The notes: generated by a model not told the origin, from the letters alone. Positions 4,123-7,794 are shown, counted from the first letter of the stretch. The stretch: 64,000 bases of DNA from Promethearchaeota archaeon (GCA_019058445.1 JAHPZA010000010.1:1-64000); one strand, 5' to 3'. Numbers and translations: made by a program.

Positions 4123-4300
4123 GATATCTCAAAAAAATATATGTGAATTACTACTACCTAAAGATAGTAGCTTCCTACGAGTCCACACCTACTTTTTCAG
4201 CAGGATTGGCTGTATGTCGTAGAAAACCATCCCATTTTTGAAGGAATCGTTCCTCATCCACAGAGGGTTCATGCGAAAGGAATTCAAATTCACCCAACTC
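4123..4300 (-). ncRNA. putative TnpB omega/reRNA overlapping the tnpB 3' end, guide from the flank (about 4123-4142); 5' boundary approximate
   Basis: Inferred from the right-end hairpin plus TCAC and from known TnpB reRNA architecture; not directly observed. Confidence 0.55.
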
Positions 4301-5482
4301 TTTTAATTTCAAGAATTTAACCATAATATTTATGGCCGAATTGAGATCTCGGTCAATTTGATTCCCACATTCGCAATTAATAACTCTTTCATAAATCGCT
4401 CTCTTTGAGAGCTTTCCACACTTACAACAGGCTTTCGTCGTCTTATCCTCACCAATTCTTATTACTCTTTTACCTATTTTTTCTGCTTTATAGGTTAAGA
4501 ATTCGGCAAATCGCGACATGAAACCTGAATTGTGAATTGAATGATTAAGAGTTTTACGTGATTTAGTTTTTCTAGCGTTTCCAGTTCCTTTTTTCTTTTT
4601 TGCCATTTTCTTTACTTCTAATTTTCCAATAATAATAGTATTTGCTTTTGTATTCTCAACAATTTGTTTGGATAACCAATGTTGGTAATCTTTTAACTGA
4701 TTCGCTTGTTTTCGCTTTATTTTATTAAATTTATAGTTGTACAAATACCATTTCTTACTATTTTTCTTGCAATGATCTCGTTTGGAGTGCACTTGTTCTA
4801 ACTTTTTCTTCCAATATAGATCTGAACGTCTATGTTTGAATGTAACAAACCTACCATATATATTTACTCCTGCAGTTTGTGAGACTCCTAAATCAAATGC
4901 TTGATAAAAACCGGTATCATCATATTTTGGTTTTTCAATCTCATAAGTAATAGAAATGAACCAATGCTTAAGTGAATCTAAGAATATTTCTACTTGCTTA
5001 ATATTTTCTTTAGGAATCAGTTCTCTCGGTAATTTAAATGATAAAATTTCTCTAGAAGGGTGTTTATGAGAAAAACTGATGGTAGAATCCTCTAATTTGA
5101 ATCCAGATTGATTGAAACACAGAGTTGTAAAATATTTTTTACTCTTGAATCGTGGTAACCTTGCTTTCTTATCTCCATTATTCCATAAAGCTTTAAATGA
5201 CTTGTAATTTGCGTCAAGTTTCCGTAAGGTCATTTGAAGCACTTTAGAATACACCCACTTGTATTCGGGATACTTTTTTTTGATATTAGGCAAGTCATTT
5301 TGTTGTTTGGCGTAATTAATGTATGTTGGTTCCTCTTTTGGTTTATTCTTATTTCTTTTCCAATTTTCGATCCGTTCGGCTAACGCAAAGTTATAAAGAA
5401 GACGGCATTTTTCTGATAAATCCCACAACACTCTAATTTGTGAATCCGTTGGAAAAATGGGTAATTTCTGTGTTAGGTTCAT
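4143..5482 (-). mobile_element. IS1341-like (tnpB-only) IS200/IS605 element; right end defined, left end not identified
   Basis: Minus strand after the tnpB stop reads GAAG-CTACTATC-TTTA-GGTAGTAG-TAATTCAC, a subterminal hairpin (4151-4170) ending in TTCAC at 4143; no tnpA nearby. Confidence 0.75.
4175..5482 (-). CDS. tnpB: RNA-guided endonuclease TnpB (IS200/IS605 family), rearranged RuvC-II type
   Basis: N-terminal CRLLYNFAL, PRFK; RuvC-I FDLG; RuvC-II position reads IIIGKL; downstream GEDKTTKAC; zinc finger CCKC/CEC; RuvC-III DRDLNSAINI. Confidence 0.95.
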   Translation of the reverse strand: MNLTQKLPIFPTDSQIRVLWDLSEKCRLLYNFALAERIENWKRNKNKPKEEPTYINYAKQQNDLPNIKKKYPEYKWVYSKVLQMTLRKLDANYKSFKALWNNGDKKARLPRFKSKKYFTTLCFNQSGFKLEDSTISFSHKHPSREILSFKLPRELIPKENIKQVEIFLDSLKHWFISITYEIEKPKYDDTGFYQAFDLGVSQTAGVNIYGRFVTFKHRRSDLYWKKKLEQVHSKRDHCKKNSKKWYLYNYKFNKIKRKQANQLKDYQHWLSKQIVENTKANTIIIGKLEVKKMAKKKKGTGNARKTKSRKTLNHSIHNSGFMSRFAEFLTYKAEKIGKRVIRIGEDKTTKACCKCGKLSKRAIYERVINCECGNQIDRDLNSAINIMVKFLKLKELGEFEFLSHEPSVDEERFLQKWDGFLRHTANPAEKVGVDS

Positions 5483-5734
5483 TATAATAATTAATAAACT
5501 CTTTTAAAAGTATAAAGAAGAGAGTGAAGAAGATTAGTAAATTTTTATTTTAGACTGATTCTTAAAATAAAGTGGTTTTCCTTTCTTGGAGAATGAAGTG
5601 ATAAAGAAAGTTCACATAGACGAAATTGATATGCTCAATTAAAAAGAAAATTTTTGAAAAATTCAATGATTTAAATAATTTGTAATAAAGTAAGATCTTA
5701 ACTTAAATAGTCACAAATTGATTATGAGAAAAAA

Positions 5735-6244
5735 ATGTCAGAAAATAGAATTGAAATTGGACCCTATGACTATATGGATCATTTCATGTCAAAAGCAGCG
5801 TTAATTTGCTCTACAGATAAAGATGGAAAGCCTAATGTTATGGCTTTATTGTGGAAAACGATTTGAGAATGACTCAAATCGTCCAAAACTATTGGAGAGT
5901 TATGGATGATCCCTGTTATCACTGCTGCAGTTGCTCCAAGTCGATATACGTTTGAATGCCTAACAAAAGGTGCTAAGGAATTTACAATAAATATCCCCTC
6001 TGATAAAACTGAAAATGCTATAAATATTACTGGATCTATGTCAGGTAAAAATACAGATAAATTCAAACAAGCAAATTTGGAGATTATACCCGGTAAACGA
6101 ACGAAAGTACCAACAATTAAAGATTGTATACTAAGCTATGAATGTAAAATTATACATGAATGCGAATCAGGAAGTATGGCAAGCCATCGATTATTTATTG
6201 GAGAAATTTTAGCAGCTTATGCTTCAAATGAAATAATAAAATAA
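5735..6244 (+). CDS. flavin reductase-like (FMN-binding split barrel) protein interrupted by a 30-nt putative intron; exons 5735-5857 and 5888-6244, 159 aa after splicing
   Basis: Unspliced frame MSENRIE...DKDGKPNVMALLWKTI*E*LKSSKTIGELWMIPVITAAVAPSRYT; removing 5858-5887 gives GKPNVMALLWKTIGELWMIPVITAAVAPSRYT...FTINIP...GSMSG...YECKI...HRLFIGEI. Confidence 0.85.
5858..5887 (+). other. putative bulge-helix-bulge (BHB) mRNA intron, 30 nt
   Basis: UGGA(5852-55)/UCCA(5882-85) 4-bp central helix; AAA bulges at 5856-58 and 5886-88; 9-bp intron stem CGAUUUGAG/CUCAAAUCG with 5-nt loop; canonical cut sites restore the frame. Confidence 0.75.
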
Positions 6245-6251
6245 ATTATCT

Positions 6252-6677
6252 TTATTTTGATTTTTTTAATTCTTCACAATAGCAAGTACTAGAATTTAGT
6301 ATTACCTCACCACAGGGACTTATATCAGGGTGATTATATTTTTCACAAATTTTATTAACTATATTGCATGAAAGAAGTAAGTTGAATTTTTCGCATTCTT
6401 CGTGTGCCTCTTTTATGTTTAAACAGAGTTCTTTAACTAATAATATTTCCATTAATTTTGCGTGGCGAATTAATTCAATAGCGAGGTCAATCCCCTTTTC
6501 TGACAAAATAACAGGTTGATAGCGTTTATATATTACATAATTTCTTTTTTCCAATCTTTTAATGCATGTCCCGACTGTTGAATGTGGAAGATCTAATATT
6601 TTGGATAATTCTCCAACTTTTAACGGATTTGAAGATCTATACAATATTTTTATCATTTTATAATCTAAATCTATCAA
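6252..6677 (-). CDS. DtxR/MntR-family metal-dependent transcriptional regulator
   Basis: wHTH, IRHAKLMEILL, AHEECEKF, HPDISPCG; directly downstream of a ZIP transporter. Confidence 0.85.
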   Translation of the reverse strand: MIDLDYKMIKILYRSSNPLKVGELSKILDLPHSTVGTCIKRLEKRNYVIYKRYQPVILSEKGIDLAIELIRHAKLMEILLVKELCLNIKEAHEECEKFNLLLSCNIVNKICEKYNHPDISPCGEVILNSSTCYCEELKKSK

Positions 6678-6769
6678 TTACCTTAAACTCCATTCAAAAT
6701 TGTTATTGTCAAATAAATAGAGTAGATATAATTGAGTCATTTTTTCGGATATTCCCACAATATAGTTAA

Positions 6770-7528
6770 TCAATGAGTATGTACCCCCAATGAAATGATA
6801 AATATCATTGTTGTGATCCCTAATAGTAATAATATTAATTGCCTTAATCCATGTTTTAATCCTAATCTTTTATGAAGTTCGGGTGTTAGGTCTGATAATG
6901 CTATATATAAAAAGCTCGCAGCAGAGATTGCCAATATGTAAGGGATTATTTCAGAAAGAGTCTCAAAAATAAAATAAGAAATTATTGCAGCTGGTATAGT
7001 AGTACTACTTGATAAGGCATTATAAGCATAGGCTTTTTTTTTTGAAAAGCCACTATGAAGTAAAATCCCAAAATCTCCTGTTTCTTGAGGTACCTCGTGT
7101 GCTATAATTGCGAATCCGACTGCTAAACCGATATGAAAATCAGTTAAAAATGCTGCGGCAATAACAATTCCATCCGTAAAATTATGAAATGCATCTCCAA
7201 CGAGCACGATTGGACCCGCTGCAACTCCGTGCACGTCGCATTCTTCATCTGGACAATTTCTCCATATTATAATTTTTTCTAAAAAAAAGAAAAATAAGAT
7301 ACTACCTAATAAAAACATCATCACAATATGTGGTTCATTTCCCGCTGATTCTATTGCTTCTGGAATTAATCCTAAAAGGGCAGCAGTAAGTAAAACACCC
7401 GTTGCATAGGAAATTAATATTGTAACTAACAATTTTTGAGTCTTATCTTTAAAAAGCATAAAGGTTGCAGCAGCAGATATGGCTCCAATGCTTCCTAATA
7501 TACTAAAAAGAATAATCCATTCGAGCAT
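6770..7528 (-). CDS. ZIP-family metal transporter
   Basis: GDAFHNFTDG and HEVPQETGDF signature motifs; multiple TM segments. Confidence 0.92.
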   Translation of the reverse strand: MLEWIILFSILGSIGAISAAATFMLFKDKTQKLLVTILISYATGVLLTAALLGLIPEAIESAGNEPHIVMMFLLGSILFFFFLEKIIIWRNCPDEECDVHGVAAGPIVLVGDAFHNFTDGIVIAAAFLTDFHIGLAVGFAIIAHEVPQETGDFGILLHSGFSKKKAYAYNALSSSTTIPAAIISYFIFETLSEIIPYILAISAASFLYIALSDLTPELHKRLGLKHGLRQLILLLLGITTMIFIISLGVHTH

Positions 7529-7794
7529 AATTTCTACACTTCTTTTTAATTATGATTTGATATTTAAAATACGGGAATTTAATATATTAAAAAAAAAGAT
7601 ATTCAATTTAATAAATTTTACGCTATTACGTAATCTTTCTTAGATTATCTAAAGTCAGTAAATCTCTCAGTTTTGAAAAAATTTAAGATAACTTGGATAA
7701 TAGATGTTTAAATTCAGAAAAAAAACTGATTTTTATTAGTTAAAGCTAATATGAATCAATTAAAGATGTATAAAATTTATTCTAGATGTTAAAA

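What the first reader, a model, noticed from the sequence alone, without database searches (positions are those of the whole stretch)
5838..5905. Candidate bulge-helix-bulge intron inside a protein-coding gene of a probable Asgard archaeon
Seen: the flavin-reductase-like ORF starting at 5735 is broken by a 30-nt in-frame insert holding two UGA stops (5864, 5870). The RNA reads ...UUG-UGGA-AAA-CGAUUUGAG-AAUGA-CUCAAAUCG-UCCA-AAA-CUAUUGG.... This gives a perfect 4-bp central helix (UGGA/UCCA), two 3-nt bulges on opposite strands, a perfect 9-bp intron stem, and an imperfect exon-exon helix (G5851-C5889 and nearby pairs; AUGGCUUU 5840-47 with AGAGUUAU 5896-5903). Established: archaeal tRNA splicing endonuclease (EndA) cuts after the second nucleotide of each bulge and RtcB ligates; mRNA substrates are rare, the classic case being crenarchaeal cbf5. 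Those cuts (5857/5858, 5887/5888) remove both stops and yield TGG AAA|ACT ATT GGA GAG = W-K-T-I-G-E, an uninterrupted 159-aa protein. Neither exon shows other lesions. Inference: this mRNA is spliced by the tRNA machinery. Such micro-introns would be annotated as pseudogenes or truncated ORFs, so more could be hidden in Asgard genomes.
Basis: partly seen in the sequence, partly recalled or inferred. Interest (0 to 1): 0.95.

Follow-up and report, generated by a model that had tools for sequence, protein, structure and literature searches.

The report
tRNA-type mini-intron in Asgard reductase gene
A working flavin-reductase gene of a Loki-type Asgard archaeon is interrupted by a 30-base hairpin insert shaped like the introns that archaea cut out of tRNAs; comparison of 20 independent sequences indicates it is a real, long-lived intron in a protein-coding gene, a kind confirmed in print for essentially one archaeal gene (cbf5).

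Summary
Window 5735-6244 (+) is a Flavin_Reduct (PF01613) gene with a 30-nt in-frame insert (5858-5887) carrying TGA at 5864 and 5870. Removing it gives 159 aa, the length of nearly all homologues, and restores the conserved LLWKTIGELW.

I found the same 30-nt insert at the same codon in 20 independent contigs. Exons are under strong purifying selection (mean dN/dS 0.09, dS up to about 1). The seven codons between the stops and the next ATG show pN 0 against pS 0.32.

Inside the insert, unpaired bases evolve at the neutral rate (1.50 against 1.56 steps per site). The bases the BHB model pairs are constrained (9 steps against 34 expected, P 3e-7), and every stem change keeps pairing. The UCCA strand that pairs with exon UGGA never changes.

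Insertless alleles nest inside the insert-bearing clade, which implies precise loss. EndA and RtcB are encoded.

Best reading, about 0.8: a bulge-helix-bulge mRNA intron. No RNA data could be obtained, so splicing itself is inferred. The outer helix is weak and the distal helix is not conserved.

I verified three more such inserts in this genome (EF-2, Sir2, Prismane). This scan has noted the same kind of intron before, in this genome and in other DNA.

The parts
5735..5857 (+). Exon 1 of the flavin-reductase gene (41 codons, M...ALLWK)
   Evidence: Open frame from ATG 5735. Aligns to the N-terminus of 159-aa homologues. dN/dS is 0.126 among intron-bearing lineages.
5858..5887 (+). 30-nt intron: third nucleotide of bulge 1, 9-bp hairpin with 5-nt loop, UCCA, and the first two nucleotides of bulge 2. 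It carries TGA at 5864 and 5870.
   Evidence: Absent from 159-aa homologues. Present at the same codon, always 30 nt, in 20 contigs. Nearly all its codon-level changes would be non-synonymous, so it is not evolving as coding sequence.
5888..6244 (+). Exon 2 (118 codons TIGELW...EIIK plus TAA)
   Evidence: PF01613 hit, E 8e-18. The first 7 codons lie upstream of the next ATG yet show pN 0 against pS 0.32. For the rest, dN/dS is 0.059.
5852..5855 (+). Central BHB helix, exon strand (UGGA)
   Evidence: Pairs with 5882-5885. Invariant in all variants.
5882..5885 (+). Central BHB helix, intron strand (UCCA)
   Evidence: 0 parsimony steps against 6.3 expected at the 4-fold-site rate, P 0.002.
5856..5858 (+). 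Bulge 1 (AAA). Predicted 5' cut at 5857/5858.
   Evidence: Geometry. The third nucleotide is G in the L042 group. The cleavage rule, between the 2nd and 3rd bulge residues, is stated in PMC2738675.
5886..5888 (+). Bulge 2 (AAA). Predicted 3' cut at 5887/5888.
   Evidence: Geometry. The second nucleotide is G in the L040, L041, L043, L053 and L054 groups. Bulge identity is free to vary but bulge size is fixed.
5859..5881 (+). Intron hairpin h': 9-bp stem (5859-67 with 5873-81) and 5-nt loop (5868-72)
   Evidence: 100% of cells pair in 10 variants. The loop-closing pair runs G-C, G-U, A-U, and two other pairs go to G-U. Stem 0.33-0.67 steps per site, loop 1.60, neutral sites 1.56.
5848..5851 (+). 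Weak outer helix h, 5' strand (AUUG); pairs with 5889-5892
   Evidence: G5851-C5889, a U.U mismatch, U5849-A5891, A5848-U5892. Invariant, but both strands are coding, so conservation says nothing about structure.
5889..5892 (+). Weak outer helix h, 3' strand (CUAU)
   Evidence: As above.

Best explanation

**Proposed mechanism, step by step:**
1. The transcript folds so that exon UGGA pairs with intron UCCA. This 4-bp helix has a 3-nt bulge on each strand and stacks on a 9-bp intron hairpin. (Shown in sequence; supported by comparative data.)
2. The genome's tRNA-splicing endonuclease EndA (202 aa, G000:C9:770313-770921) cuts between the second and third nucleotide of each bulge, at 5857/5858 and 5887/5888. 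(Inferred.)
3. The RNA ligase RtcB (G000:C1:114713-116020) joins the exons and probably circularises the 30-nt intron. (Inferred.)
4. The mature mRNA encodes a 159-aa enzyme reading ...LLWK|TIGELW... Unspliced transcripts would end at the UGA inside the intron after 43 residues.

The intron is at least as old as the common ancestor of all sampled carriers (dS up to about 1). It has been lost precisely at least twice.
For: 1. **Product.** Removal restores the length (159 aa) and the most conserved motif of more than 100 homologues.
2. **Recurrence.** Twenty independent contigs carry an insert of exactly 30 nt at the same codon, and all exons are intact except in one contig.
3. **The gene works.** Mean dN/dS is 0.09 over 90 pairs with dS up to about 1. 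Exon 1 alone is 0.126. The 7 codons between the stops and the next ATG have pN 0 against pS 0.32, so they are translated in the upstream frame.
4. **Site-by-site evolution of the insert matches the BHB model.**
   - Unpaired intron positions: 1.50 steps per site, against 1.56 at 4-fold degenerate sites.
   - Paired positions: 0.41 steps per site (9 against 34.4 expected, P 3e-7).
   - UCCA: 0 against 6.3 expected (P 0.002).
   - All stem changes keep pairing, including a G-C, G-U, A-U series.
5. **The upstream codon is not expressed.** Codon ACG, inside the predicted intron, changes to ATG or GCG, while the downstream ACU-AUU is invariant.
6. **Energetics.** The BHB fold lies within 1.4 kcal/mol of the MFE.
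7. **Machinery.** EndA passes the TIGR00324 equivalog cut-off and RtcB is intact. Asgard EndA is reported as a broad-specificity (alpha-beta)2 type (PMC5829648).
8. **Same layout elsewhere in this genome.** Inserts of 30-32 nt with the same 4-bp helix, 3-nt bulges and intron hairpin (9-bp stem and 5-nt loop in EF-2, 8-bp stems in the other two) interrupt EF-2, a Sir2 gene and a Prismane/CODH gene. In each, the two halves hit adjacent parts of one Pfam model.
9. **Loss.** Insertless alleles L006 and L007 nest within the insert-bearing clade.
Against: - No transcript, circular-intron or enzymatic evidence exists. Splicing is inferred.
- The outer helix next to the 3' bulge is weak (three pairs around a U.U mismatch), and the distal helix is not conserved. 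The motif is therefore relaxed, closer to HBh' than to a strict hBHBh'.
- Formal covariation is thin: one double-sided pair, and 57 of 500 shuffles reach the observed score.
- Only one EndA subunit gene was detected, so the enzyme type and its tolerance for relaxed motifs are not established here.
- A flanking direct repeat (12 of 16 nt) makes the exact junction ambiguous at the sequence level, and it also fits a translational-hop model.
- In this window an IS element ends about 10 nt upstream of the start codon, so expression of this particular copy is uncertain.
Confidence: 0.8

Rival explanations
1. Programmed translational bypass (hopping), as in phage T4 gene 60 or the mitochondrial byp elements. 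The ribosome takes off at AUU (5861-63) just before UGA, slides over the hairpin, and lands on the matching AUU (5891-93). The mRNA is never cut, and the product is the same length.
For: - Matching take-off and landing codons (AAA-ACN-AUU repeated 30 nt apart).
- A stop codon immediately 3' of AUU in all 20 copies.
- A stable hairpin starting at the take-off site.
- The product would also be 159 aa.
Against: - With take-off at AUU, the residue before Ile would be encoded by the upstream codon. That codon is ATG in L005 and GCG in the L042 group. The downstream ACU is invariant, and Thr is conserved in nearly all homologues shown (one has Gln).
- Bypass does not predict the invariant UCCA or the fixed spacing of a 4-bp helix with 3-nt bulges.
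- Unrelated inserts in EF-2, Sir2 and Prismane share the BHB geometry, but EF-2 and Prismane show no significant junction repeat.
- Bypass of this type has not, to my knowledge, been described in archaea.
Confidence: 0.06
2. The insert is cut out of the RNA, but by something other than EndA/RtcB (another structure-specific nuclease and ligase). The BHB-like shape would then be incidental to a hairpin-directed process.
For: The strongest conserved element is the hairpin. The outer helix is weak. No enzymology is available.
Against: - The conserved UCCA pairs with exon UGGA at exactly the BHB register.
- The BHB cleavage rule gives the correct junction.
- The known machinery is encoded.
- No alternative archaeal mRNA-splicing machinery is known.
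Confidence: 0.05
3. The insert is never removed. The gene is then a pseudogene, or works as two polypeptides (43 aa and 112 aa from ATG 5906), or the UGA codons are read through (selenocysteine or Trp) to give a protein with 10 extra residues.
For: - Annotation pipelines-aa and 112-aa ORFs.
- One caller read a copy through with TGA=W.
- aragorn reports a possible tRNA-SeC in the genome.
- L005 has an extra TAA in exon 1.
Against: - dN/dS 0.09 at dS up to about 1 excludes long-term pseudogene status.
- Exon 1, and the 7 codons upstream of ATG 5906, are under purifying selection in the upstream frame. That argues against a split gene.
- Codon-level changes in the insert are almost all non-synonymous (E/K, stop/S/L/P/F, L/F, S/L, T/M/A). 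That argues against read-through coding.
- TGA ends 250 of 1,984 long ORFs, as many as TAG, so the code is standard.
- Insertless orthologues at 91-92% identity show the 10 residues are dispensable.
Confidence: 0.04
4. The insert is a DNA-level element, such as a miniature mobile element, a transposon footprint or a template-switch duplication with a target-site-like repeat. It would be present or absent by DNA excision, with no role for RNA processing.
For: - A flanking direct repeat (12/16, P 1e-4).
- Presence/absence polymorphism among close relatives.
- An IS200/IS605-type TnpB element lies next to the gene in this window.
Against: - The insert is unique in the genome. The only other hit, at 3 mismatches, is an unrelated 3'-end hairpin.
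- The other 19 carriers lack the TnpB element.
- G-U wobble substitutions preserve RNA pairing but not DNA pairing.
- A DNA origin does not explain how a gene with in-frame stops stays under strong purifying selection. Such an origin is compatible with the insert now being a spliced intron.
Confidence: 0.03

Closest known systems
cbf5 pre-mRNA intron of Crenarchaeota (Desulfurococcales and Sulfolobales; Watanabe 2002; Yokobori 2009, PMC2738675)
   Same: - A short intron inside the coding region of a protein gene, with BHB-type exon-intron boundaries.
- Cleavage is predicted between the 2nd and 3rd bulge residues.
- The motif is usually an unconventional (relaxed) BHB that needs a broad-specificity endonuclease.
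- The intron has been gained once and lost secondarily in some lineages.
   Different: - Different gene (flavin reductase, not a pseudouridine synthase).
- Different phylum (Asgard, not Crenarchaeota).
- In frame and only 30 nt, with a stereotyped hairpin.
- One of several similar inserts in the same genome, whereas cbf5 is treated in print as the single case.
- Splicing of cbf5 was shown experimentally. Here it is inferred.
Archaeal tRNA and rRNA BHB introns (hBHBh' and relaxed HBh' motifs; Marck and Grosjean 2003, from my own knowledge; EndA types in PMC5829648)
   Same: The geometry is the same: a 4-bp helix, two 3-nt bulges on opposite strands and an inner helix. The predicted enzymes are the same (EndA, RtcB). 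Bulge sequence is free and structure is conserved.
   Different: - The host RNA is an mRNA that is translated, so splicing must compete with ribosomes.
- The outer helix is formed by coding sequence and is weak.
BHB intron in the 5' UTR of Haloferax volcanii HVO_1309 (PMC7714728)
   Same: An mRNA substrate of the archaeal splicing endonuclease, found as a circular RNA and cut in vitro.
   Different: That intron is 46 nt and lies in the untranslated leader, so it does not interrupt a reading frame.
Translational bypass elements (T4 gene 60; byp inserts of Magnusiomyces mitochondria; from my own knowledge)
   Same: A short non-coding insert inside an ORF, with matched codons at both ends, a stop codon at the take-off site and a hairpin. 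The product lacks the insert.
   Different: - The constraint pattern (invariant UCCA, fixed 3-nt bulges) and the free variation of the upstream Thr codon fit RNA cutting, not hopping.
- No nascent-peptide signal was examined.

Membership tests
Archaeal BHB intron (EndA/RtcB substrate) | Central 4-bp helix flanked by two 3-nt bulges on opposite strands | tested here: met
   UGGA 5852-55 with UCCA 5882-85; bulges at 5856-58 and 5886-88. 100% of cells pair in 10 variants, and the bulge size never changes.
Archaeal BHB intron (EndA/RtcB substrate) | Flanking helices: inner h' and outer h | tested here: inconclusive
   h' is a perfect 9-bp stem and meets the requirement. The outer h is only G-C, a U.U mismatch, U-A and A-U. 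The distal helix is not conserved. This corresponds to a relaxed, HBh'-like motif.
Archaeal BHB intron (EndA/RtcB substrate) | Cuts between the 2nd and 3rd bulge nucleotides give a functional, homologue-like product | tested here: met
   Cuts at 5857/5858 and 5887/5888 give 159 aa with LLWKTIGELW, as in insertless homologues. The rule is stated in PMC2738675. The junction is degenerate because of the AAAAC repeat.
Archaeal BHB intron (EndA/RtcB substrate) | Structure, not sequence, is conserved among orthologues | tested here: met
   Paired sites show 9 steps against 34.4 expected (P 3e-7). Unpaired sites evolve at the neutral rate. All stem changes are wobble or compensatory. Formal covariation is weak (57/500).
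Archaeal BHB intron (EndA/RtcB substrate) | The host encodes the splicing endonuclease and the RtcB ligase | tested here: met
   EndA: PF01974 and PF02778 hits, TIGR00324 at 89 bits against a 59.6 cut-off, PDB 1a79 at E 2.6e-24. RtcB: PF01139, E 2.6e-172, no internal stops. A beta subunit was not found.
Archaeal BHB intron (EndA/RtcB substrate) | Spliced RNA and excised (circular) intron observed; cleavage by EndA in vitro | not testable with these tools
   No RNA holder was listed for window 5500-7600.
Flavin reductase-like domain family (PF01613) | Significant match to the family profile over the domain | tested here: met
   E 1e-18, 68 bits against a 27-bit cut-off. There are 317 homologues, most about 159 aa and all carrying PF01613.
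Programmed translational bypass (gene 60 / byp type) | Matched take-off and landing codons, with a stop codon and hairpin at the take-off site | tested here: met
   AUU-UGA at 5861-66 lies inside the hairpin's 5' arm, and a matching AUU lies at 5891-93. This holds in all 20 copies.
Programmed translational bypass (gene 60 / byp type) | Codons upstream of the take-off site are expressed and therefore under protein-level constraint | tested here: not met
   The upstream ACG codon becomes ATG (L005) or GCG (L042, L046, L047). The downstream ACU is invariant, and Thr is conserved in nearly all homologues shown.

The most novel reading that the evidence does not exclude
This intron is one member of a sizeable population of stereotyped mini-introns of about 30 nt in ordinary protein-coding genes of Loki-type Asgard archaea. 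Each has a 4-bp helix, 3-nt bulges and a 7-9-bp hairpin.

On this reading the tRNA-splicing machinery routinely splices mRNAs in the closest prokaryotic relatives of eukaryotes. New introns would arise de novo from local duplication or template switching: the 5' stem arm here is a diverged copy of the start of exon 2. They would then be lost precisely.
Probability: 0.45. Interest if true: 0.9.

Novelty: new member of a known kind. Interest (0 to 1): 0.72.

Why it matters
**State of the literature.** Endonuclease-dependent splicing of a protein-coding region in archaea has been confirmed in print for cbf5 only, plus one 5'-UTR intron in Haloferax. My searches found no paper describing such introns in Asgard archaea.

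**What this case adds.** It has unusually good comparative support, and it sits in a genome where I could verify three more.

**If transcripts confirm it:**
- mRNA splicing by the tRNA machinery would be a regular feature of gene expression in Asgard archaea. That bears on how splicing and translation are coordinated without a nucleus.
- It bears on the ancestry of unconventional, RtcB-dependent mRNA splicing in eukaryotes.

**Practical consequence.** Current pipelines mis-annotate these genes as a 43-aa ORF plus a truncated enzyme, or read them through with a wrong genetic code. Asgard gene inventories and pseudogene counts are therefore biased.

Tried and rejected
- **RNA evidence.** This says nothing either way.
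- **Repeated element.** The hairpin occurs once in the genome. A second hit at 3 mismatches (C3:456570) is a hairpin at the 3' end of an unrelated dehydrogenase gene.
- **Rfam.** Nothing meaningful in 5400-6400 (two chance hits, E 0.5-0.8).
- **De novo genome scan.** I scanned for BHB-shaped, ORF-restoring inserts of 18-60 nt. There was no enrichment over five controls with altered bulge sizes (880 against 917-948 hits; no excess at longer stems either). The background is hairpins between adjacent genes, so the scan cannot estimate how many introns the genome holds. The first version of the scan timed out.
- **Pfam test on scan hits.**
  - Of four BHB-geometry hits chosen by eye, three are single interrupted domains (EF-2, Sir2, Prismane) and one is two adjacent thiolase genes.
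  - A fifth BHB-geometry hit, in an MFS transporter, is ambiguous.
  - Of 11 control-geometry hits with at least 100 open codons on each side, none is an interrupted domain, and at least 9 are adjacent genes.
  - At an equal threshold the contrast is small (1-2 of 3 against 0 of 11).
- **EndA beta subunit.** Not found with PF01974, PF02778 or NF007085. The genome is 92.6% complete, so the enzyme type stays open.
- **TGA recoding.** Rejected.
- **Link to the neighbouring TnpB element.** Rejected, because the other carriers lack it.
- **Duplication origin as a general rule.** The junction repeat is significant here and for Sir2, but not for EF-2 or Prismane.
- **P0130.** No DNA could be fetched for this protein's contig.

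Full report
**1. The observation.**

From ATG 5735 the frame gives 43 residues ending ...ALLWKTI, then TGA (5864), GAA, TGA (5870). It then continues in the same frame as LKSSKTIGELWMIPV... to TAA at 6242.

Both the read-through protein and the downstream part match the flavin reductase-like domain PF01613 (E 1e-18 and 8e-18).

The 68-nt stretch 5838-5905 folds much better than shuffled sequence (-20.1 kcal/mol, z -4.5). The minimum-energy fold keeps the hairpin but pairs the flanks a little differently from a BHB. With UGGA/UCCA and the 9-bp stem enforced, the BHB conformation scores -18.7 kcal/mol, which makes it a near-optimal alternative.

**2. Homologues.**

A search of the large protein collection returned 317 homologues. 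Nearly all are about 159 aa, and many are named by their sources as Promethearchaeota, Lokiarchaeota, Thorarchaeota, Hodarchaeota or Hermodarchaeota. That supports the Asgard assignment.

In the alignment the homologues read ...NVMALLWKTIGELWMIPV... with a 10-column gap opposite the insert. Removing 5858-5887 therefore gives the family's length and restores its most conserved N-terminal motif.

Two hits of 112 aa at about 90% identity, and one read through with TGA as Trp, suggested that relatives carry the same interruption.

**3. A comparative set.**

Fetching the DNA behind those proteins and their cluster members gave 20 contigs from independent NCBI, ENA and JGI assemblies. Each carries an insert of exactly 30 nt at the same codon. 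They fall into 10-11 distinct variants of the 68-nt region. The insert is therefore not an assembly artefact.

All exons are intact except in L005, which has a TAA at codon 13 and a TTG start.

Among 135 species-level genomes of the family, only the window's genome and one congener (G026, matching L003) carry the insert. It is unique within the genome.

**4. The gene is functional in carriers.**

- Among 14 distinct intron-bearing coding sequences, mean pairwise dN/dS is 0.09, with dS reaching about 1.
- Exon 1 alone gives 0.126, and the bulk of exon 2 gives 0.059.
- The seven codons T-I-G-E-L-W-(M) lie after the in-frame stops and before the next ATG. They show synonymous change (pS 0.32) but no amino-acid change at all.

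These codons are therefore translated in the frame of exon 1. That is impossible unless the stops are removed or skipped, so both long-term pseudogene status and a split-gene arrangement are ruled out.

Changes inside the insert would almost all be non-synonymous if it were read as codons. TGA is an ordinary stop codon in this genome (250 of 1,984 long ORFs). Read-through coding is therefore also unlikely.

**5. How the insert itself evolves.**

Parsimony on the gene tree gives:

| Site class | Steps per site | Note |
|---|---|---|
| 4-fold degenerate exon sites (neutral proxy) | 1.56 | |
| 8 intron positions the BHB model leaves unpaired (3 loop positions variable, third nt of bulge 1, first two nt of bulge 2) | 1.50 | neutral rate |
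| 22 intron positions the model pairs | 0.41 | 9 steps against 34.4 expected, P 3e-7 |
| UCCA, which pairs with exon UGGA | 0 | 6.3 expected, P 0.002 |

Every stem substitution keeps a standard RNA pair. Two pairs go to G-U, and the loop-closing pair runs G-C, G-U, A-U.

The formal covariation statistic is weak (one double-sided pair; 57 of 500 shuffles as high). The argument therefore rests on the contrast in rates and on the absence of any disruptive change.

Bulge nucleotides change identity (AAA to AAG, AAA to AGA), but bulge size never changes. This is what is expected for an enzyme that reads shape rather than sequence.

**6. Splicing against hopping.**

The insert is flanked by a direct repeat (12 of 16 nt; P 1e-4). 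It has AUU-UGA at the start of the hairpin and a matching AUU 30 nt on. A gene-60-like translational bypass would therefore give the same protein length.

Two observations speak against it:
- The codon just upstream of the take-off AUU varies (ACG, ATG, GCG), while the downstream ACU is invariant and Thr is conserved in nearly all homologues shown. The downstream copy is the expressed one.
- Bypass does not explain the invariant UCCA at exactly three nucleotides' offset.

I keep bypass as the main rival, at about 6%.

**7. Machinery and precedent.**

The genome encodes a 202-aa EndA. It has the N-terminal and catalytic domains and scores 89 bits on the TIGR00324 equivalog, above the cut-off. 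Its best solved relatives are M. jannaschii 1a79 and M. kandleri 5x89. It also encodes an intact RtcB.

I found no separate beta subunit. Published analysis assigns Asgard archaea a broad-specificity (alpha-beta)2 enzyme with the L1 loop (PMC5829648).

The cbf5 paper states the same cleavage rule, notes that most cbf5 introns have an unconventional BHB, and documents one gain followed by secondary losses (PMC2738675). The Haloferax study says only cbf5 and its own 5'-UTR case are known mRNA substrates (PMC7714728).

Four literature searches found nothing on such introns in Asgard protein genes.

**8. Loss.**

In the gene tree, the insertless L006 is sister to intron-bearing L040, and L007 groups with the window and L005. 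Other insertless proteins (P0128, P0129, P0131) share 90%-identity clusters with carriers. The intron has therefore been lost precisely at least twice.

L006 reads TGG-AAG-ACT. The AAG matches the 3' copy of its sister, not the predicted splice product (AAA). This hints at deletion between the direct repeats rather than loss through a cDNA. A later synonymous change cannot be excluded.

**9. Other introns in the genome.**

Earlier notes of this scan list further BHB-like inserts in this genome and in others. I treated them as leads.

My own structure-plus-ORF scan showed no statistical enrichment over bulge-size controls, because hairpins between adjacent genes swamp it. It did recover the present site and an EF-2 site with the same layout.

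Testing the halves of selected hits against Pfam gave these results:
- EF-2 (C10:684116-684145), a Sir2 gene (C9:775863-775892) and a Prismane/CODH gene (C6:396802-396833) are single domains interrupted at contiguous profile positions.
- A thiolase hit is two adjacent genes.
- None of 11 control-geometry hits with long flanks is an interrupted domain.

The control is small, and the BHB hits were partly chosen by eye. This supports, but does not prove, that real interruptions in this genome have BHB geometry.

**10. Context in the window.**

A TnpB-only IS200/IS605-type element (about 4143-5724; ORF 4175-5482 on the minus strand) is inserted between the PfkB gene and the reductase gene. It ends about 10 nt before the start codon. 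It is absent from the other carriers, and a second copy at 83% identity lies on C4. It is unrelated to the intron, but it may have replaced this copy's promoter.

**11. Verdict.**

I put about 0.8 on a BHB intron removed by EndA and RtcB.

It is a new member of a known kind: a new gene and a new phylum for the cbf5-type mRNA intron. The comparative evidence is strong, but there is no transcript evidence.

Noticed in passing
window 4143-5724 (TnpB ORF 4175-5482, minus strand): A TnpB-only IS200/IS605-type element (PF07282, PF12323, PF01385) is inserted between the PfkB gene and the reductase gene. It ends about 10 nt upstream of ATG 5735. It is absent from L003 and the other carriers. A second copy, 83% identical, lies at G000:C4:157743-159082. 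It may have displaced the reductase promoter in this genome.
   Followed up: partly
G000:C10:684116-684145 (-), G000:C9:775863-775892 (-), G000:C6:396802-396833 (-): Three further inserts of 30-32 nt with BHB geometry interrupt EF-2 (GTP_EFTU positions 2-33 | 47-187), a Sir2 gene (58-103 | 108-180) and a Prismane/CODH gene (255-457 | 458-512). A 33-nt candidate in an MFS transporter (C3:524156-524188) is ambiguous.
   Followed up: partly
window 5852-5867 compared with 5882-5897: The 5' junction (TGGAAAACGATTTGAG) and the 3' junction (TCCAAAACTATTGGAG) are 12/16 identical (P 1e-4). The 5' stem arm therefore looks like a diverged copy of the start of exon 2, and the 3' arm like its inverted copy. 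This suggests birth of the intron by a local duplication or template-switch event. Sir2 shows a weaker repeat (9/16); EF-2 and Prismane show none.
   Followed up: partly
L006 150-175 compared with L040 1433-1500: The insertless allele L006 reads TGG-AAG-ACT. The AAG matches the 3' (intronic) copy of its intron-bearing sister, not the predicted spliced product AAA. This hints that the loss happened by DNA deletion between the direct repeats rather than through a spliced cDNA.
   Followed up: no
L005 570-745: This intron-bearing copy also has a TTG start and an in-frame TAA at codon 13. Its gene caller translated it with TGA=W from a later ATG. It is either a decaying copy or a low-coverage assembly error, and it shows how these genes get mis-annotated with a wrong genetic code.
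   Followed up: no
G000, whole genome: aragorn finds only 23 tRNA genes in a 4.6-Mb genome that is 92.6% complete. Most of them have predicted introns, several at odd positions. The tRNA genes here are probably heavily disrupted and under-detected.
   Followed up: no
G000:C9:770313-770921: Only one EndA-like gene (202 aa, N-terminal plus catalytic domain) was detectable. Its closest solved relatives are the M. jannaschii alpha4 and M. kandleri enzymes. No beta subunit was found, although the literature assigns Asgard an (alpha-beta)2 enzyme.
   Followed up: partly
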